Shown piece after piece: positions 29,654 through 42,081 of a stretch of 64,000 bases of DNA. The stretch spans positions 21,355-85,354 of the forward strand of contig JAJZXW010000041.1 in assembly GCA_021806225.1 (NCBI GenBank), written 5' to 3'. The DNA is from Nitrospirota bacterium. GTDB taxonomy: Bacteria > Nitrospirota > Leptospirillia > Leptospirillales > Leptospirillaceae. The notes beneath the pieces were generated by a model. It was given only the letters and a program-made list of their open reading frames with translations, was not told the origin of the DNA and did no database searches. Each line of letters begins with the position of its first letter. Position 1 is the stretch's first letter. The position numbers and the translations under genes were made by a program.

Positions 29654-30727
29654 TCATTTCTTGGCCCCGGAGGGAACAAGGACGACGTCATTCGAACCCG
29701 AGACACGCACGTGGGACGTCCCGCAAGATACCCCGAGAAAATCGGACCCGTGAAAGGTCCCTAGGAGCGACTCGCTCCTCTCTTCCCCCGACGGGCTGCG
29801 TGTGATCAAAACCACAGTTCCTTGTTCTCCGACCACAGCCACCGTCCCTCCTCCTGTCCGGCATGCACCGTAAAGATCATGCAACGTCCCGGTCTGGATC
29901 TGAAAAAAATTCCTTCCCCCGTCAGAGGAAGAAAAAAGAAGCCCATGGTCTCCGGCCAAAAGGACCTGTTCCTTAGACGACCACAGGCTGTTGAAGGAGG
30001 GCTTCTGGCGTGTGACCTTCTGCACGGCTATGTCGATGGCGGTGAAGCGGGTCCCTCCATCTTCCGTCCTGAAAAGCCTCTTGTGCCAGCCGGCGACCAA
30101 TCCGTGCGACTCGTCCGTAAAGGTGACGGCATAAAGGTTCTTTTTGGTCGGAGAGTTCAGACGCACCCAATGGTCTCCACCATCGATCGTCCTGAGAATG
30201 ACCCCATTTTCTCCCACAGCGTACCCGACGCGGTCGGTCGGAAAGCTGATGGCATTAAGGAAGAGCCGGCCCACCCCCGTTCGGACATGTTCCCATGAAC
30301 GCCCCCCGTCCTTGGAACGGAGAAGGACGCCCCGGTCCCCGACTACCCACAGGACACCAGAAGGGAGCCGGCTGATCCCGTAGAAATCCACATGGACCGG
30401 AGGAACCGGACGACTCCATTGTCCTGTCCTGGAAGACAGGCGGAGAAGTGTTCCCTGATATCCGACCACGACGAGATTTCCCGAGTCCTCCACAATTCCG
30501 GAGAGAACCCCGATGAAGTCAGACGTCTTCTTGTTGGTTTGGGAAACGGGAGAAGCGGGTGGACGAAGGAGCGAAAAAGACGTCCCCGCCGGAAGCTTGA
30601 CGGAGGGAAGCGTGACCGTTTGAGGCTTCTGGCAGGCCACCAACAAAAGGGAGGCCGCGGCTACCATGACGAGCCTCCCTAGGTGATTCAACCCTTGAGC
30701 CATGAATCGATTCATTCTTTCAATCAT
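29654..30727 (-). CDS. Ycf48-like / BNR (Asp-box) repeat beta-propeller lipoprotein
   Basis: 357 aa with lipobox LLLVAC. It has repeated Asp-box motifs: SKDGGRSW, TIDGGDHW, TEDGGTRF and SSDGGRNF. Confidence 0.7.
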   Translation of the reverse strand: MIERMNRFMAQGLNHLGRLVMVAAASLLLVACQKPQTVTLPSVKLPAGTSFSLLRPPASPVSQTNKKTSDFIGVLSGIVEDSGNLVVVGYQGTLLRLSSRTGQWSRPVPPVHVDFYGISRLPSGVLWVVGDRGVLLRSKDGGRSWEHVRTGVGRLFLNAISFPTDRVGYAVGENGVILRTIDGGDHWVRLNSPTKKNLYAVTFTDESHGLVAGWHKRLFRTEDGGTRFTAIDIAVQKVTRQKPSFNSLWSSKEQVLLAGDHGLLFSSSDGGRNFFQIQTGTLHDLYGACRTGGGTVAVVGEQGTVVLITRSPSGEERSESLLGTFHGSDFLGVSCGTSHVRVSGSNDVVLVPSGAKK

Positions 30728-35383: not shown

Positions 35384-36433
35384 ATGGTCGTCCGCTATGC
35401 GGAAAGCAAGGATGAAAGCGCAGAAATCCTTCGTCTCGTCCTCCAGAAAATGGGTGAATGGCGTCTTTCCTTCACCCCCGTTCATTACACCGTCGTTTAT
35501 GAATATGTCACCAACATCAATCCGGGACTTCGAAAAACCATCGACGACCTTGTCGCAGCGGGGATGCTGACCGACAAGCGGATCGAGGAGGCCTATTACG
35601 GATTCATCGTTCCGGAACAGACCCTCCCCGTTCTCGAGCAACGAGGACTCCTGACGCAGGAAACGCTCGAGATCCTCAACCGCATGGCCGAATCGGCCAA
35701 CGCAACCATGCAGTCGACCCAGAAGGCCCGATTCGGAATCCTTTCCCAGCACAATGCCCTTCGGACAGCCGAGGTCGTTGACTCCTCCCTACTCCAGTCA
35801 GTCATTACCCGGCTTGCGGGAGAGACAAAAAAGCTTATCGAGACGAGCGAAACCCTTGAAAATCAGTTGCGGGACAGCCGAAAGGAAATCGAGTCCCTTC
35901 GATCCGAACTTCAGGCAGTAGCCCAGGCATCGGCCATCGATCCCCTTACCGGCATCATCAACCGGAGAGGGTTTGAAAAACAGATTGAATCCTGTCTTCA
36001 TATCCATGAAAAGAAGGCGGGAGACTGCTCCTTCCTCTTCCTCGATATCGACCATTTCAAGCAGATCAACGACGAATACGGCCATGTCGTGGGGGACCGG
36101 GTCCTTCAGGCCGTCGCGCAGGTTTTCAGGGCAAAAACGCGGGGCGAGGACATCGTGGCCCGATACGGAGGGGAGGAGTTCATTATCATTCTCCCGGCGA
36201 CGCCCATCGACAAGGCCCATATCGTAGCCGAGAACATTCGCCAGAACGTCGAGCGCATCGCACTCCTGAACGCCAAGGACAGCAAAGCAATCGGCGTTGT
36301 AACCATTTCGATCGGCATCGACGTACACAAGCCTGGCCAGAACTGGCGTCAGACAATTGAGAGGGCCGACAAGGCTATGTACCAGTCAAAACAGAACGGA
36401 AGGAATCGCACGACAACCTATTTTCAGATCTGA
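35384..36433 (+). CDS. Diguanylate cyclase (GGDEF with RxxD I-site) with uncharacterised N-terminal domain
   Basis: Start reset to the Met of MVVRYAESKD... The C-terminal domain reads DPLTGIINRRGF...LDIDHFKQINDEYGH...RGEDIVARYGGEEFIIIL, with GGEEF and RGED five residues upstream. Confidence 0.85.
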   Translation: MVVRYAESKDESAEILRLVLQKMGEWRLSFTPVHYTVVYEYVTNINPGLRKTIDDLVAAGMLTDKRIEEAYYGFIVPEQTLPVLEQRGLLTQETLEILNRMAESANATMQSTQKARFGILSQHNALRTAEVVDSSLLQSVITRLAGETKKLIETSETLENQLRDSRKEIESLRSELQAVAQASAIDPLTGIINRRGFEKQIESCLHIHEKKAGDCSFLFLDIDHFKQINDEYGHVVGDRVLQAVAQVFRAKTRGEDIVARYGGEEFIIILPATPIDKAHIVAENIRQNVERIALLNAKDSKAIGVVTISIGIDVHKPGQNWRQTIERADKAMYQSKQNGRNRTTTYFQI

Positions 36434-36444
36434 GTCTGCCCTCC

Positions 36445-39400
36445 TCAATTCTTCCTTTCTCCCTCACGCCTTCTCCGCTCCTCCTCCAGAATGGCCTCTG
36501 CCAACTGATCAGAAACTTTTTTCAAGGGAGCGAGGTCTGATTCCAGCGGACTCAGCCCATTCCCCCGAATTCTCCGAACTCCTGCCGCCAAAGTTTTGTG
36601 ATAGCGGGAGTGAAGCCGGGCGATCTTCCCTTCGGGAGCCAGCCCAAAATTTTGCATGATTTCCCGGACAGGACAATTCACAACGTCATCCAGTGTCGTC
36701 GGATCAAAAACGGCCAGGTTCTGAAGCAGATATTCCAATTGCAACCCATGAGTCCGGACCAGCAGGGCATAGAGGCCGAGAAGGGATTTCGGCATAAAGC
36801 TCCTTTCGGGGGGAAACTCCCGAAGAAAGAGGACGAGATCGGGAAGACGAATGGGCTTGGAGATCTCATAGCCCTGGAGAAAATCGACTCCCAGCATGCG
36901 CATGGCATCCAGGATCGGGCCGGTTTCCACCCCTTCCACCACAAGGGAAAGCCCCATCCGGTGGGAGAGTTCCATGATTGCCTCGACGAAATGGAGATCC
37001 TTGGGTCGCGCTTCGAGGGTCCGGACGAATGCCTGATCGAGCTTCACCTTGTCGACGGGGAGATCTTTCAGGCGAAGGAGAGACGAATAGGCGCTTCCCA
37101 CATCGTCCATGGCCAACCTGACCCCCAACCCCTTAAGCCGTTTCAGGAGATCGAGAGCCACAACTGTTTCGCCGAACTCCTGTCCCTCGAGAATCTCGAG
37201 CGTGAGGCGGGACGGGTCGATCCGGGAAGCCCCGAGCATCCTCCCGAGGCATTCGAGGCATCCTTCGCTGATGGATCGGGGATCCACATTCACAGAGACC
37301 CAGAGGGACGGGTCCGTCTCGAAAAGCTCCCCAAGATCCGAGAGGGCCCGTTCCAGCACCTGCCGGGAAAGCTCGAAGAGATCGTCGCCCCCATAGTCCT
37401 GAAGAAAGGCGGTCGGGGAGAGGATCGTCCCATCAGAGTTCCGGAGGCGTGCAAGGGCTTCGATCCCCGCGATCCGGCCTGTCCTGCCGTCGAGGATTGG
37501 CTGATAATGGACCTCCACCTTCCGCTCGTAGAGCAGTCTCTGCGCCAGTGTGCGCGCCAGCGGAACCGTCTCTCCATAAATCATCCAGCAGCGGGAACGG
37601 TCATTCTTGTGGGACTTGCTTTCATAGAGAGCCTGATCCGCAAGCCGCATGAGATTTTCCGGATTTTCGGGCGATCCCGTGCCGGGAGAGGACAAGGCCA
37701 CACCGATCGACACTCCCACCGTCACCCCTTCCCCCTTCTCCAGCCTCACGGGAATCCTTGCGGTCCGGTCGATCCTGTCGAGGAGATCCCCAAGCTCCTC
37801 CCGACCCGTGACATTCTCAAGAAGCAAAACAAATTCATCTCCTCCGAGACGCGCCAGGAAGTCTGTCTTTCGAAGAACTCCCAGGATCCTCTCCCCCGTC
37901 AGACGAAGAAGTCGGTCTCCGGCTTCGTGGCCATAGCGGTCGTTGACCGGCTTGAAGCCGTCAAGGTCGAGCATCGCGACGGCGAAGGACCACCCGTACC
38001 GGGCGGAGCGGGCAAGGAGCCTGTCGAACTCAAGATCGAGCCCTCGCCTGTTCGGAAGGCCGGTCAGCCGGTCGTGGCGCGAGTCGAACTCGAGCCGTTG
38101 GGTCAGCTCGATCAGGGAAGTGATGTCCCGCTGGTTTCCGACAAATTCGACGATCCGGCCGGAGGAATTCCGGAGCGGGCTGATGGAAAGGAGATTCCAG
38201 AAGGGTGTCTTGTCCTTCCTGTAGTTCAGGATTTGACCGTGAAAAGGGCGTTCCTCCCGAAGAGCCGTGCGGATTTCCTCGACCGTCGCGGGGTCGCTCC
38301 CCTCCCCCTGAAGGATCCGGCAATTCTGCCCCATCATCTCGTCTGCCGTGTACCCCGTGATCGATGCAAACCCGTCGTTTGCAAAGATCACACGTCCATC
38401 TGGCCCTGTGATCACCACTCCTTCTCCGACGGCTCCTACCGCGCTCGAGAGAAGATTTTGCCGGGAGAGAAGGTCCAGGCGGTCGAGGCCAAGAGAGATA
38501 TTTCGGGCAAGTTCGGTCAGAAGCCCTTCGAGGACGGGGTCGCTGAAGGCTCCCTCCTTCGCATGGCCGACGAAAAGGAGTCCCCAGGGCTTCCCCTTCC
38601 GAAGGATGGGAAGGGCAGCACTCGCGTTGAGGCCGAACTCCCTGAGCCTTCCCGCCCAGAGCGCCCGGGTTCCTGCCGCATCCGGATCGAAGACGGGAGC
38701 GCGTCCCGCAAGGGCCAGAACGAGATGATCCGATATTTCGCGCGCTCCTTGCGGGGTAGAAGAGTGCCCTTCCTCAAGGAAGTCGGCCCGTCCCGAAGAC
38801 GCGATCACATCAATCCCTCCCCGGCCACCCGGACAGAGGATGGCGGCCACCGTTATCTCTCCGTGGGTGACAGCCAGGTCGCAAAGTTTCGAGAGAAGGG
38901 TGGACTCGTCGGATCCTGCCGAAAGCGCCTCTGAGGCATGGGCGAGAAGGGTGTTGTAGGAAGAGAGGAGTCGGAGTCGCTCCGTCTGGGCATGACGGTC
39001 GCCCACGTCATGGACGGTTCCCACGACCACAGAGGGTTCGTCCGGAATCCGGGCCAGGGAGATGTCCACCATGACCGGATGCCCGTTCTTGTCGACCATT
39101 CTCACATCCGGGATCTCGACGCTCTCCCGTCCGGGAAGGAGTCCGTAGGCAAAGCCCACCCGCTCGAATTCCTCCGGGTCTCCATAGAGCATCCGGGTCG
39201 TATGACCGACCATCTCCCCGACCTGGTCGTAGCCCAGCATCTGCCGCATACGGTCGTTGACATAGCGGATCCGGCGCTTTTCGAGAAGCATGATCCCCGC
39301 CCGGGTGTTTTCAAGAAGAACCTTCTCGAGGGTCGCCAACTCCCTTTCCCGTCGAAGGGACTCGAGACGGTCGAGTCCCCGGGAGACGTCCCGTGCCAGC

Positions 39401-42081
39401 TCCGAAAGGACCTCCTGAAGAGCGGGGTCGAAACTGGCGGGCTCTTCGTGATACAGCGCCAGGAGCCCCCAGATCCCACCCTCCCGCACCACCGGAAGGA
39501 CTGCCGCGGTCCGAAGCTTGTGGTGGAGGGCCCTTTCTTTCGACGTCGTTCCAGCAAGCCTTTCGAGAATGTCGACATTGAAAAGAGGGCGACCCGTTCG
39601 CCAGACCTCTCCCACCATCCCATCCCCTGCGGATTGATCCGGATTGACCGAAATCGTCAGATTCTCGAGGAATGCTGTTTCTCCGGCGCTTGCCTCCACC
39701 TTGACGGCACTTCCTTCCACCGGACGCCCGATCCAGGCCAGTCGGAGCTTCCCGAATCGGACCGCCAGGTCACAGATTCCCTGGAGGAGGGACTCCTCCA
39801 TCGTCGCTTCGGCGATCGCCTGATTGACCTGGGCCAGGAGGCTGTTGAAGTCGGCAAGCCGGGAAAGTTCCTGGGCCAGACGATGACGCTCGGAGACGTC
39901 GACGATTGTCCAGACGACTGTATCTGGACCCTCCCCGACGATTTTCTGTCCGGAGAGATCCACATATCCTTCAGAGCCGTTTGCCCGACGGAGGCGCAGG
40001 TCACGGAGACGGGCGCTCCCGGTCGCGAGGGCCTCCTCCGACGCCTCTCCCATTCTCGCAAAGCTGTCGTCTCCCACGAAATAAAGGTCACGGACGCTGT
40101 GCCCCACGATTTCTTCCGGAGACCCGTAACCCAGGATCTCGAGGAAGCCGCGGTTCACCTCGACCACGACCCGGTCGGGATAGCGGACGAGATCGATTCC
40201 GGCCGTGGTGTTGGCGAGAAGGGTCTCCTTGAGGGCCGTGGCCTTCCTTTCTCTTCCAGAGAGGTCAAAACGGTCGAGGGCCAGGGAGAGGTTGTCCGCG
40301 ATCGCCTCGATCAAATGCCGAAGCTCGGGCTCGAAGCTTTCCTCCCTGTCGAGATAGACGGTCAGCACCGCCCAGATCGTTCCGCCGCGATGGACAGGAA
40401 TGGAGGCGCTGGACTGGAAACCGAATCGTCGGGCCTCCGCAACCCAGGGCCCCATGGAAAGATTTTGCGTAAAGGAGGAATTGTAGACCGGAAGGTCCGC
40501 TCTCCAAGCCTGCTCCATCGGACTGAGGCCCTCAGGATGGTCGGGGAGGCTTGAGGCGGCGGCGTGCTCGAGGTATCCATTCTCCCCGGAGGACGCCAAA
40601 ACCTGAAAGATCCCGGCCTCGTCTGGGCGACCGACCCAGGCCAGCCGGATTTCGGGAACATCGATCGAGAGGCGACAGAAGTCCGGAAGAATCTCCTCTT
40701 CCCGGATCTCTCTCGACACCGCCTCCGCAACCCGACCCCGCAGAACGTCGAAGGCGAGAAGGCGCTCGAGCCTCTCGTTTTTTTCCTCGAGTCTTCCTTC
40801 GAGCTCCCGGCGCTCCGTCACATCGAGGCCCAGAAAAACCCGGTAAAGAGGGCGTCCCTCCGCATCCCTAAGGACGGAGAGGCTCCATTCGAAGATCCGG
40901 CGCTTACCGGTCATTCCGGTCCAGCCACATTCGGAGGGAACGGGGGCCTCCCCCCGCGTCAGGGCTTCAAAGAGGCTCCGGACGCCTGAACGGTCCTCTG
41001 CCGGCAAGGAGCGCATCCACTCCCAGGGCTTTCCCCTGACCACCTCCGCCGTCACTCCCAAAAATATTCGCGCTGTCCGGTTGATGCGGAGGGCCTCGCC
41101 ATTCGGATCGAGGACCAGCCCGAGAGCTCCGGCTCCATCGAAGATTGCCTCGTCGAGCTCCGACAGTTCGGCAAGCTGTCTCCCCTGACGTTCCTGACGG
41201 CGAACCAGGGTCCGAATCCCGAAAACGATCAGGACCAGCAGAAACAGTCCCCCCTCCTCGACCATCCAGCGGCGTGACGACGAGCTCATCCACTCGTCCC
41301 TGACCAGGGAGGTCGGCCAATAAGCGGTGACCTCGAAGGGATACCCGGGAACCGGGATCCGAACGATGTTTTTGTCTCCGGGAACGAGAGGGGAGTCGGA
41401 ACGATTCCCCCGGACCAGGAAAAGAATGTCGCCATTCCGGAGATCCCTCAGGGAAAAGCTGAAAGTGCGATGGGCCCTCGGAGGAACCAGATCTGTCACC
41501 CGAAGGAAGGTACGGACTCCGAGGGGGGATTTCCCGGCCGGCGCGGGAAGAAGAATCGCAAGGGGGAGAATTCGCGTTCCGAGACGGGCAGATAGCCGGC
41601 TGCGTCCCACGAGAAACGAGGGGTTTTCTCGAAGGGGAGTGGCGTAGCCGGTTGCGGGAAAGGTGGCCGCGGGGGGAGTCTCGGGGGGGGAGATCCGGGT
41701 TGACCAGAGGATCCGGCCGGTCCGGGGGTTATAGAGCTCGAAGTCGACCAGGGACGGGTGAAGGGCCAGAAAAATCCGGAGTGTCCGCTCCGTAGCCGGC
41801 CCGGGAGGTCGAAGCGGCAGGCGGACTTCCGGGAGGGTGGAAGCCACAAACCCAAGATCGAGAAAGCGCGACGAGATGCGCCGGGAGACCGCTGAGGCGC
41901 GGGTAAGGGCAGCTCTGGCCGCTCGCGCTTCCACCGCATTCCGGTAATCGCTGTACTCCGCCGATTCGAAAAAGGCGATTCCAAGGAGGGCCAGGACGAG
42001 GGTTCCTGCAACCAGAAGGCCAACCGACTTCCCGATCAGAAGATGTTCCAGCAGAAGGCGTGGCTTCAACGTAGTCTTCAT
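36445..42081 (-). CDS. Multidomain c-di-GMP signalling protein: TM, periplasmic domain, TM, 3x(PAS-GAF), LOV-PAS, GGDEF, EAL, C-terminal extension
   Basis: 1878-aa ORF with TM helices at about residues 18-38 and 276-290. GGDEF (LGGDEF with RKTD I-site) spans about residues 1335-1495. EAL (EVHYQPI, GIEALARL, LEILE, DDVGSAYSSL, VVEGVET, QGY) spans about residues 1515-1745. Confidence 0.9.
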   Translation of the reverse strand: MKTTLKPRLLLEHLLIGKSVGLLVAGTLVLALLGIAFFESAEYSDYRNAVEARAARAALTRASAVSRRISSRFLDLGFVASTLPEVRLPLRPPGPATERTLRIFLALHPSLVDFELYNPRTGRILWSTRISPPETPPAATFPATGYATPLRENPSFLVGRSRLSARLGTRILPLAILLPAPAGKSPLGVRTFLRVTDLVPPRAHRTFSFSLRDLRNGDILFLVRGNRSDSPLVPGDKNIVRIPVPGYPFEVTAYWPTSLVRDEWMSSSSRRWMVEEGGLFLLVLIVFGIRTLVRRQERQGRQLAELSELDEAIFDGAGALGLVLDPNGEALRINRTARIFLGVTAEVVRGKPWEWMRSLPAEDRSGVRSLFEALTRGEAPVPSECGWTGMTGKRRIFEWSLSVLRDAEGRPLYRVFLGLDVTERRELEGRLEEKNERLERLLAFDVLRGRVAEAVSREIREEEILPDFCRLSIDVPEIRLAWVGRPDEAGIFQVLASSGENGYLEHAAASSLPDHPEGLSPMEQAWRADLPVYNSSFTQNLSMGPWVAEARRFGFQSSASIPVHRGGTIWAVLTVYLDREESFEPELRHLIEAIADNLSLALDRFDLSGRERKATALKETLLANTTAGIDLVRYPDRVVVEVNRGFLEILGYGSPEEIVGHSVRDLYFVGDDSFARMGEASEEALATGSARLRDLRLRRANGSEGYVDLSGQKIVGEGPDTVVWTIVDVSERHRLAQELSRLADFNSLLAQVNQAIAEATMEESLLQGICDLAVRFGKLRLAWIGRPVEGSAVKVEASAGETAFLENLTISVNPDQSAGDGMVGEVWRTGRPLFNVDILERLAGTTSKERALHHKLRTAAVLPVVREGGIWGLLALYHEEPASFDPALQEVLSELARDVSRGLDRLESLRRERELATLEKVLLENTRAGIMLLEKRRIRYVNDRMRQMLGYDQVGEMVGHTTRMLYGDPEEFERVGFAYGLLPGRESVEIPDVRMVDKNGHPVMVDISLARIPDEPSVVVGTVHDVGDRHAQTERLRLLSSYNTLLAHASEALSAGSDESTLLSKLCDLAVTHGEITVAAILCPGGRGGIDVIASSGRADFLEEGHSSTPQGAREISDHLVLALAGRAPVFDPDAAGTRALWAGRLREFGLNASAALPILRKGKPWGLLFVGHAKEGAFSDPVLEGLLTELARNISLGLDRLDLLSRQNLLSSAVGAVGEGVVITGPDGRVIFANDGFASITGYTADEMMGQNCRILQGEGSDPATVEEIRTALREERPFHGQILNYRKDKTPFWNLLSISPLRNSSGRIVEFVGNQRDITSLIELTQRLEFDSRHDRLTGLPNRRGLDLEFDRLLARSARYGWSFAVAMLDLDGFKPVNDRYGHEAGDRLLRLTGERILGVLRKTDFLARLGGDEFVLLLENVTGREELGDLLDRIDRTARIPVRLEKGEGVTVGVSIGVALSSPGTGSPENPENLMRLADQALYESKSHKNDRSRCWMIYGETVPLARTLAQRLLYERKVEVHYQPILDGRTGRIAGIEALARLRNSDGTILSPTAFLQDYGGDDLFELSRQVLERALSDLGELFETDPSLWVSVNVDPRSISEGCLECLGRMLGASRIDPSRLTLEILEGQEFGETVVALDLLKRLKGLGVRLAMDDVGSAYSSLLRLKDLPVDKVKLDQAFVRTLEARPKDLHFVEAIMELSHRMGLSLVVEGVETGPILDAMRMLGVDFLQGYEISKPIRLPDLVLFLREFPPERSFMPKSLLGLYALLVRTHGLQLEYLLQNLAVFDPTTLDDVVNCPVREIMQNFGLAPEGKIARLHSRYHKTLAAGVRRIRGNGLSPLESDLAPLKKVSDQLAEAILEEERRRREGERKN
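38116..38442 (-). other. LOV-type (flavin-binding) PAS domain within the 1878-aa sensor
   Basis: Residues 1214-1322 carry LOV hallmarks: GQNCRILQGEGSDP (Cys1254, codon 38320-38322), NYRKDKTPFWNLLSISP and FVGNQRDIT. Confidence 0.75.

What the first reader, a model, noticed from the sequence alone, without database searches (positions are those of the whole stretch)
38116..38442. LOV-type flavin photosensor domain placed directly in front of GGDEF-EAL in a 1878-aa membrane sensor
Residues 1214-1322 read VVITGPDGRVIFANDGFASITGYTADEMMGQNCRILQGEGSDPATVEEIRTALREERPFHGQILNYRKDKTPFWNLLSISPLRNSSGRIVEFVGNQRDIT. This carries the LOV hallmarks. They are the GxNCR(F/I)LQG motif with the adduct-forming Cys (Cys1254, codon 38320-38322), the NY.K.G..FWN strand pair, and the conserved Gln in GNQRDIT. 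The domain sits immediately N-terminal to intact GGDEF and EAL domains, so blue light or flavin redox state would gate c-di-GMP turnover. The rest of the window (OFOR, NiFe hydrogenase, acs) looks like a chemotrophic, non-phototrophic lifestyle. A light input there is unexpected.
Basis: partly seen in the sequence, partly recalled or inferred. Interest (0 to 1): 0.7.

Follow-up and report, generated by a model that had tools for sequence, protein, structure and literature searches.

The report
Ordinary LOV blue-light sensor on GGDEF-EAL
A large membrane signalling protein of a Leptospirillum-type acid-mine iron oxidiser carries a textbook LOV flavin blue-light sensor just ahead of its c-di-GMP-making and c-di-GMP-breaking domains; this domain layout is common in bacteria, and the matching Leptospirillum protein was already listed as a LOV protein in 2014.

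Summary
Residues 1214-1322 map to 38116-38442, and Cys1254 is codon 38320-38322.

The segment is a canonical LOV domain.
- Its best PDB sequence matches are all LOV domains (E 2e-31 to Chlamydomonas phototropin LOV1). NCRILQG aligns on NCRFLQG without gaps.
- All seven flavin-contact residues are present.
- An AlphaFold model matches LOV crystal structures at 0.6-0.7 A. Its best full-length match is the LOV-activated diguanylate cyclase LadC (8c05).

The LOV-to-GGDEF linker is 21 residues, the known short-linker class. The GGDEF, I-site and EAL motifs are intact.

The "unexpected" part does not hold. About 18% of bacterial LOV proteins carry GGDEF or GGDEF+EAL, and chemotrophic examples are already known. 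A 2014 census lists LOV proteins in every Leptospirillum group, including what is almost certainly the Group IV 'UBA BS' ortholog of this gene.

One modestly interesting side result emerged. The syntenic ortholog in L. ferrodiazotrophum has Leu in place of the adduct Cys but keeps every other flavin residue. That hints at flavin redox or semiquinone signalling in that lineage.

Verdict: a new member of a known kind, of low interest.

The parts
36445..42081 (-). Whole gene: 1878-aa multi-sensor GGDEF-EAL protein. It starts 22 nt after the pheT stop codon and has a GGGAGGGGAG ribosome-binding site.
41968..42024 (-). Predicted transmembrane segment 1 (residues 20-38)
   Evidence: Kyte-Doolittle hydropathy scan
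41263..41967 (-). Putative periplasmic segment (residues 39-273) with no recognisable family
41206..41262 (-). Predicted transmembrane segment 2 (residues 274-292)
38452..41184 (-). Three tandem, paralogous PAS-GAF modules (residues 300-612, 613-910 and 911-1210). Modules 2 and 3 are 37% identical over 300 aa.
38116..38442 (-). LOV domain (residues 1214-1322). Flavin-contact residues are N1253, C1254, R1255, Q1258, R1271, N1286, N1296 and Q1317.
38320..38322 (-). Codon TGC for Cys1254, the adduct-forming cysteine position
38065..38127 (-). 21-residue helical linker, DITSLIELTQRLEFDSRHDRL. It runs from the D of the LOV DIT motif to the L of the GGDEF DxLT motif (residues 1319-1339).
37600..38079 (-). 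GGDEF domain (residues 1335-1494), with GGDEF at 1413 and the RKTD I-site at 1404
36853..37542 (-). EAL domain (residues 1514-1743): EAL at 1541, DDVGSAYSS at 1659, EGVE at 1716
36448..36849 (-). C-terminal 134-residue extension of unknown family
35384..36433 (+). Convergent neighbouring gene for a 349-aa GGDEF protein, kept at this position in all orthologous loci. It may be a partner, but that was not shown.

Best explanation
Residues 1214-1322 form a canonical LOV domain. It is the last of several sensor modules in a membrane-anchored c-di-GMP enzyme of a Leptospirillum-clade (Nitrospirota) bacterium.

Inferred mechanism, by analogy with characterised LOV proteins:
- The domain binds FMN non-covalently.
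- Blue light drives a covalent bond between Cys1254 and flavin C4a.
- The resulting N5 protonation is read by Gln1317 on the last beta strand.
- The change travels through the 21-residue helical linker into the dimeric GGDEF-EAL output and shifts the balance between c-di-GMP synthesis and hydrolysis.

By analogy with SL2 of Synechococcus elongatus, the most likely effect is light-stimulated phosphodiesterase activity. The protein would combine this with signals from the periplasmic segment and the three PAS-GAF modules.

Shown here: LOV identity, conserved contact residues, predicted fold, linker class, intact catalytic motifs, and conservation of the Cys across the clade. Inferred only: flavin binding, the photocycle, and the sign and target of regulation.
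For: - Sequence. The top 60 PDB matches are LOV domains (E 2e-31 to 3e-23). The alignment to Chlamydomonas phototropin LOV1 has no gaps, and C57, R58, Q61, R74, N89, N99 and Q120 are all matched.
- Family. PAS_9 has its best stretch at 1220-1321.
- Structure. The AF2 model has pLDDT 87.7. The Foldseek top hit is 8c05, the LOV-activated diguanylate cyclase. The LOV core fits CagFbFP at 0.6-0.7 A rmsd with TM 0.95.
- Linker. It is 21 residues, the short-linker LadC class.
- Output domains. GGDEF-EAL aligns end to end with RbdA- and MorA-type enzymes, and the GGDEF, RxxD, EAL, DD, K, EGVE and QG motifs are kept.
- Conservation. Cys is fixed in 31 distinct orthologous sequences at 63-100% identity. 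LOV is the best-conserved sensor module, 64-87% identical against 35-57% for the N-terminal region.
- Precedent. SL2 is a LOV-GGDEF-EAL protein with blue-light-induced phosphodiesterase activity (PMC8846402).
Against: - No experiment exists on this protein or on any Leptospirillum LOV protein.
- The A-beta/B-beta hairpin is 2-3 residues shorter than in several reference LOV domains.
- Lys replaces the usual Gly/Asp in the NYxxxG turn.
- EAL loop 6 reads DDVGSAYSS rather than DDFGTGYSS, and ExTE reads EILE, so full phosphodiesterase activity is not assured.
- Truncated short-linker LOV-GGDEF constructs from LOV-GGDEF-EAL proteins showed no light-regulated cyclase activity (PMC10396304).
- The L. 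ferrodiazotrophum ortholog does without the Cys.
Confidence: 0.8

Rival explanations
1. The domain binds flavin, but its physiological signal is the flavin redox state (cellular redox, oxygen or electron-transport status of an iron oxidiser), not light. The Cys would be incidental, or would add only a secondary light response.
For: The positional ortholog in L. ferrodiazotrophum shares the pheS-pheT / GGDEF / rplT-rpmI-infC-thrS synteny. It has Leu (CTC) at the Cys position in 8 independent sequences and keeps R, Q, R, N, N and Q. Cys-less LOV-like domains do signal by chemical reduction or photoreduction (PMC4682037). RmcA PASd of P. aeruginosa is implicated in both light and phenazine redox responses (PMC8846402).
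Against: In this clade the Cys is invariant across 31 sequences down to 63% overall identity. That is hard to explain unless adduct chemistry is under selection. All canonical LOV domains tested so far with this residue set show a photocycle (my own knowledge of the field, not tested here).
Confidence: 0.12
2. The LOV domain is photoactive but the output domains are catalytically weak or inactive. The protein would then act mainly as a light-dependent c-di-GMP-binding or scaffold protein, possibly with the neighbouring GGDEF protein.
For: EAL loop 6 is a variant (DDVGSAYSS) and ExTE reads EILE. An intact RxxD I-site could bind c-di-GMP. A GGDEF gene is always adjacent.
Against: All metal- and substrate-binding residues that I could check are present in both domains. 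GGDEF and EAL are among the best-conserved parts of the protein.
Confidence: 0.06
3. The segment is an ordinary PAS domain that does not bind flavin and only resembles LOV motifs by chance.
For: PAS_9 also contains non-LOV members (PMC8846402). Relatives with Pro at the Cys position (TPRILQG) exist.
Against: E 2e-31 and 47-55% identity to solved LOV domains, all seven contact residues present, and 0.6 A structural fit.
Confidence: 0.02

Closest known systems
Leptospirillum sp. [quoted passage not shown]
   Same: It matches my hit P0006 (EQD25469.1) in organism, length and domain architecture. P0006 is 67% identical to the window protein over 86% of its length and has GENCRILQGE and GNQRDIT. 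It is the direct ortholog.
   Different: The window protein is full length (1878 aa) and comes from a different species-level lineage. The closest genome records are unnamed 'Nitrospirae bacterium' MAGs at 86%, 79% and 67% identity. I inferred that the two accessions are the same protein from organism, length and architecture, not from a sequence comparison with the WP record.
SL2 of Synechococcus elongatus (LOV-GGDEF-EAL; Cao et al. 2010, as described in PMC8846402 and PMC10396304)
   Same: A LOV domain directly before GGDEF-EAL, a canonical Cys adduct, and a 21-residue short linker class. Blue light induces its phosphodiesterase activity.
   Different: SL2 is a cyanobacterial protein. It has no membrane anchor and no three PAS-GAF modules. 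I could not compare sequences directly.
LadC, LOV-activated diguanylate cyclases (MsLadC, PDB 8c05; Vide et al. 2023, PMC10396304)
   Same: It is the best structural match to the LOV-linker-GGDEF model. It shares the motif set and the coiled-coil linker logic, and the window protein has the short-linker length.
   Different: LadC proteins are stand-alone LOV-GGDEF without EAL. The tightly switched family members have a 35-residue linker, which this protein lacks.
RmcA PASd of Pseudomonas aeruginosa and other Cys-less LOV-like domains (PMC8846402; Yee et al. 2015, PMC4682037)
   Same: A flavin-type PAS domain in front of GGDEF-EAL in a chemotroph. This is relevant to the Leu-bearing L. ferrodiazotrophum ortholog.
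   Different: The window protein keeps the adduct Cys.

Membership tests
LOV domain (flavin-binding PAS subfamily) | PAS fold with closest sequence similarity to solved LOV domains | tested here: met
   The Pfam PAS_9 best stretch is 1220-1321. The top 60 PDB matches are LOV domains, best E 2e-31. The AF2 model fits LOV crystal structures at 0.6-0.7 A rmsd.
LOV domain (flavin-binding PAS subfamily) | Adduct-forming Cys in Gx(N/D)C(R/H)(F/I)L(Q/A), aligned to the photoactive Cys | tested here: met
   GQNCRILQ lies at 1251-1258. Cys1254 aligns without gaps to Cys57 of Chlamydomonas phototropin LOV1.
LOV domain (flavin-binding PAS subfamily) | Flavin-contact residues equivalent to R58, Q61, R74, N89, N99 and Q120 of Cr-phot LOV1 | tested here: met
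   R1255, Q1258, R1271, N1286, N1296 and Q1317 are all present in register. The reference residue numbers come from my own knowledge of Fedorov et al. 2003 and agree with the alignment offsets.
LOV domain (flavin-binding PAS subfamily) | Motifs FxxxT(G/E)Y and N(Y/F)xxx(G/D)xx(F/L)xN, as used by Vide et al. 2023 | tested here: inconclusive
   FASITGY is met. NYRKDKTPFWN has Lys at the G/D turn position, so the strict third pattern fails by one residue that does not contact the flavin.
LOV domain (flavin-binding PAS subfamily) | Binds FMN/FAD and shows the 450 nm to 390 nm photocycle | not testable with these tools
   This needs protein expression and spectroscopy.
LOV-GGDEF(-EAL) photoreceptors (LadC / SL2 type) | LOV directly N-terminal to GGDEF through a helical linker of conserved length (21 or 35 residues, from D of DIT to L of DxLT) | tested here: met
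   The linker spans 1319-1339 and is 21 residues, predicted helical.
LOV-GGDEF(-EAL) photoreceptors (LadC / SL2 type) | Catalytically competent GGDEF (GG(D/E)EF, DxLT) and EAL motifs | tested here: met
   GGDEF 1413, DRLT 1337, I-site RKTD 1404, EAL 1541, DD 1659, EGVE 1716. The region aligns full length to 5m3c, 5xgb and 4rnh. Loop 6 is a variant.
LOV-GGDEF(-EAL) photoreceptors (LadC / SL2 type) | Light-dependent change of cyclase or phosphodiesterase activity | not testable with these tools
   This needs enzyme assays in dark and blue light.

The most novel reading that the evidence does not exclude
Two syntenic orthologs exist within the iron-oxidising Leptospirillum clade. One has the adduct Cys (Group IV-like lineages, including this window). 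The other has Leu (L. ferrodiazotrophum). Together they may represent a natural switch between a light sensor and a flavin redox or semiquinone sensor controlling c-di-GMP. In that reading, light is a meaningful cue for these chemolithotrophs, for example because sunlight photoreduces Fe(III) to their substrate Fe(II) and generates oxidative stress in acid waters. That ecological link is my own inference and was not tested.
Probability: 0.15. Interest if true: 0.45.

Novelty: new member of a known kind. Interest (0 to 1): 0.18.

Why it matters
It matters little beyond annotation. The gene should be labelled as a LOV-GGDEF-EAL photoreceptor candidate rather than a generic "PAS/GAF diguanylate cyclase/phosphodiesterase".

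It does add to a point that remains experimentally unexplored. Acidophilic iron oxidisers used in bioleaching carry conserved blue-light sensors wired to c-di-GMP, the messenger that controls attachment and biofilm formation on mineral surfaces. No light response of Leptospirillum appears in the literature I could search.

The Cys/Leu ortholog pair offers a ready-made natural comparison for anyone studying how LOV domains move between photosensing and redox sensing.

Tried and rejected
- I translated the given coordinates on the + strand. The result was nonsense; the gene is on the minus strand.
- I searched the window in six frames for further LOV-type NCR(F/I)LQ motifs. Only this one is real. 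The other match lies inside ThiG and is unrelated.
- A homolog search with the isolated LOV-linker fragment returned only 7 short proteins. It did not help place the domain among other LOV lineages.
- I looked for papers containing both Leptospirillum and "LOV domain" and found none. Papers containing Leptospirillum and photoreceptor held nothing relevant.
- I tried to read Goltsman et al. 2013 on Group IV UBA BS, but it is not held.
- I scanned the periplasmic segment and the C-terminal extension against Pfam at E <= 1 and got no hits.
- I considered that the motif might be chance similarity in a generic PAS domain. I rejected this on E-values, the contact residues and the structural fit.
- I considered horizontal acquisition on a mobile element. 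I rejected this because the gene sits in a conserved housekeeping context (pheST / rplT-rpmI-infC-thrS) in all related genomes.
- I did not run the 1.84-billion-protein representative search. The answer did not depend on it.

Full report
**Observation**

The 1878-aa ORF is real and lies at window 36445-42081, but on the minus strand. The finding did not state the strand, and the + strand translation of its coordinates is meaningless. On the minus strand, 38116-38442 encodes residues 1214-1322: AVGAVGEGVVITGPDGRVIFANDGFASITGYTADEMMGQNCRILQGEGSDPATVEEIRTALREERPFHGQILNYRKDKTPFWNLLSISPLRNSSGRIVEFVGNQRDITS. Cys1254 is the TGC codon at 38320-38322.

There are two small inaccuracies. The pattern "NY.K.G..FWN" is not literally met, because the sequence has Lys where Gly is usual (NYRKDKTPFWN).

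**What the segment is**

Pfam places PAS_9, the family that contains LOV, at 1220-1321. GGDEF follows at 1335-1494 and EAL at 1514-1743.

A sequence search of the PDB with residues about 1206-1330 returns 159 matches. The top 60 are all LOV domains: Chlamydomonas phototropin LOV1 at E 2e-31, then bacterial LOV histidine kinases, Brucella LOV-HK, YtvA, phototropin-2 and aureochrome.

The alignment to Chlamydomonas LOV1 has no gaps over 101 residues and places NCRILQG on NCRFLQG. The seven flavin-contact residues of that domain are C57, R58, Q61, R74, N89, N99 and Q120. That numbering comes from my own knowledge of the 1N9L work and is consistent with the alignment offsets. They correspond to C1254, R1255, Q1258, R1271, N1286, N1296 and Q1317, and all are present.

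I built an AlphaFold2 model of residues 1205-1500 from an alignment of orthologs. It has mean pLDDT 87.7. Its best Foldseek match in the PDB is 8c05, the dark-state LOV-activated diguanylate cyclase LadC. The LOV core superposes on Chloroflexus CagFbFP structures at 0.6-0.7 A rmsd with TM 0.95. The segment is therefore a canonical LOV domain by every test available short of spectroscopy.

**Anatomy of the whole protein**

- A hydropathy scan gives two hydrophobic segments, at 20-38 and 274-292. They flank about 235 residues with no recognisable family.
- Three tandem PAS-GAF modules follow. They are paralogs of each other; modules 2 and 3 are 37% identical over 300 residues, E 9e-44.
- Then come LOV, a linker, GGDEF, EAL and a 134-residue tail of unknown family.
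- Measured as Vide et al. define it (D of DIT to L of DxLT), the LOV-GGDEF linker is DITSLIELTQRLEFDSRHDRL. At 21 residues it has exactly the length of the "short-linker" LOV-GGDEF class, which also includes the LOV-GGDEF-EAL proteins studied earlier.
- GGDEF-EAL aligns end to end with RbdA- and MorA-type enzymes (5m3c at E 2e-56, 5xgb, 4rnh). GGDEF, an RxxD I-site five residues upstream of it, EAL, the DD pair, the catalytic Lys, EGVE and QG are all kept.
- The only deviations are loop 6 (DDVGSAYSS for DDFGTGYSS) and EILE for ExTE.

**Organism and context**

The exact protein occurs on ENA metagenome contigs. The closest genome records are unnamed "Nitrospirae bacterium" MAGs at 86%, 79% and 67% identity. 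The next relatives are Leptospirillum sp. Group IV 'UBA BS' (67%) and L. ferrodiazotrophum (45%).

The gene starts 22 nt after pheT and has a good ribosome-binding site. It lies between pheS-pheT and a convergent GGDEF gene followed by rplT-rpmI-infC-thrS. This arrangement is identical in a 63% ortholog locus and in L. ferrodiazotrophum. It is thus a vertically inherited chromosomal gene, not an island.

The window also encodes OFOR subunits, acetyl-CoA synthetase and an Oxidored_q6 protein.

**Conservation**

All orthologs down to 63% identity keep G.NCRILQGE and GNQRDIT, across 31 distinct sequences. LOV is the best-conserved sensor module. It is 64-87% identical among orthologs, against 35-57% for the N-terminal region and 39-66% for the second GAF domain.

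The positional ortholog in L. ferrodiazotrophum reads GKNLRILQGEG, with Leu (CTC) in place of Cys. This holds in 8 sequences from separate assemblies. R, Q, R, N, N and Q all remain. That ortholog also lacks the third PAS-GAF module.

**How it most likely works**

The mechanism is inferred by analogy with characterised LOV proteins.
- FMN is bound non-covalently in the dark.
- Blue light forms the Cys1254-C4a adduct.
- Gln1317 reads the N5 protonation.
- The signal passes through the 21-residue helical linker to the dimeric GGDEF-EAL output.

The closest characterised system with this layout is SL2 of Synechococcus elongatus, in which blue light induces phosphodiesterase activity (PMC8846402; PMC10396304). 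For short-linker LOV-GGDEF proteins, Vide et al. propose moderate modulation through coiled-coil register rather than the tight caging seen with 35-residue linkers. I therefore expect a modest, light-dependent shift towards c-di-GMP hydrolysis, combined with the other sensor inputs. The sign and the target of the regulation are inference.

The main rival is flavin redox sensing. The Leu-bearing ortholog supports it, as do the precedents of RmcA PASd and Cys-less LOV-like proteins. However, the strict conservation of Cys in this clade argues that adduct chemistry is under selection here.

**Comparison with what is known, and novelty**

LOV-GGDEF(-EAL) is one of the commonest bacterial LOV architectures. 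It accounts for about 18% of 1390 bacterial LOV proteins in the 2014 census (PMC4844311). LOV-type sensing has also been described in the chemotroph P. aeruginosa.

The supplement of that census lists LOV proteins in the following organisms:
- L. ferriphilum ML-04 (GAF+LOV+PAS+GGDEF+EAL)
- L. ferrodiazotrophum (three proteins)
- L. ferrooxidans C2-3 (LOV+GGDEF)
- several Group II strains

The last entry has the same organism, length and architecture as my hit P0006, the 67% ortholog of the window protein.

What remains open is experimental. I found no paper reporting any light response or any LOV biochemistry in Leptospirillum.

**Verdict**

It is a new member of a known kind, and its ortholog has already been catalogued. 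Interest is low at 0.18.

The most novel reading still open is that the Cys/Leu ortholog pair marks a natural transition between photosensing and redox sensing in iron oxidisers. I give that about 0.15 probability and moderate interest if true.

Noticed in passing
L017 6001-10785 (L. ferrodiazotrophum ortholog, P0007); the equivalent of window codon 38320-38322: The syntenic ortholog has Leu (CTC) at the adduct-Cys position in 8 sequences from separate assemblies. It keeps all other flavin-contact residues. It is a natural Cys-less LOV-like domain in front of GGDEF-EAL.
   Followed up: partly
window 38452-39351 (-), residues 911-1210: The third PAS-GAF module is missing from the L. ferrodiazotrophum ortholog (1594 aa against 1878 aa). 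Modules 2 and 3 are 37% identical, so the sensor array grows and shrinks by whole modules.
   Followed up: partly
P0008 (1307 aa) and P0150 (303 aa), both on one 74470-bp contig: In one L. ferrodiazotrophum-type assembly the gene appears split by a frameshift inside the GGDEF domain. The reading frame diverges after 'LLPGG'. This could be a pseudogene or an assembly error.
   Followed up: no
window 36448-36849 (-), residues 1745-1878: A 134-residue C-terminal extension follows the EAL domain. It has no Pfam match at E <= 1 and is only 29-69% conserved among orthologs. Its function is unknown.
   Followed up: partly
window 41263-41967 (-), residues 39-273: The putative periplasmic sensor segment between the two hydrophobic helices has no Pfam match.
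   Followed up: partly
window 35384-36433 (+): A convergent 349-aa GGDEF protein lies next to the gene. Its N-terminal half gives only weak coiled-coil-type hits. It is kept next to the LOV gene in every orthologous locus examined.
   Followed up: partly
window 1-36000 versus 36000-64000: GC content steps from about 0.54-0.59 to about 0.60-0.65 near the LOV gene. This is unexplained.
   Followed up: no
window 29654-30727 (-): A BNR-repeat protein matches the Pfam family named for photosystem II assembly factor Ycf48 (PSII_BNR, E 6.5e-21), although the organism is not a phototroph. It is probably a generic BNR/sortilin-type beta-propeller.
   Followed up: no
P0172 and P0173 (metagenome proteins, alignment A1): These LOV-like PAS domains read TPRILQG, with Pro at the Cys position, and otherwise keep LOV-like NYRKDG and QRD motifs.
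   Followed up: no
A three-subunit 2-oxoacid:ferredoxin oxidoreductase is also present. I did not look for the hydrogenase large subunit.
   Followed up: partly
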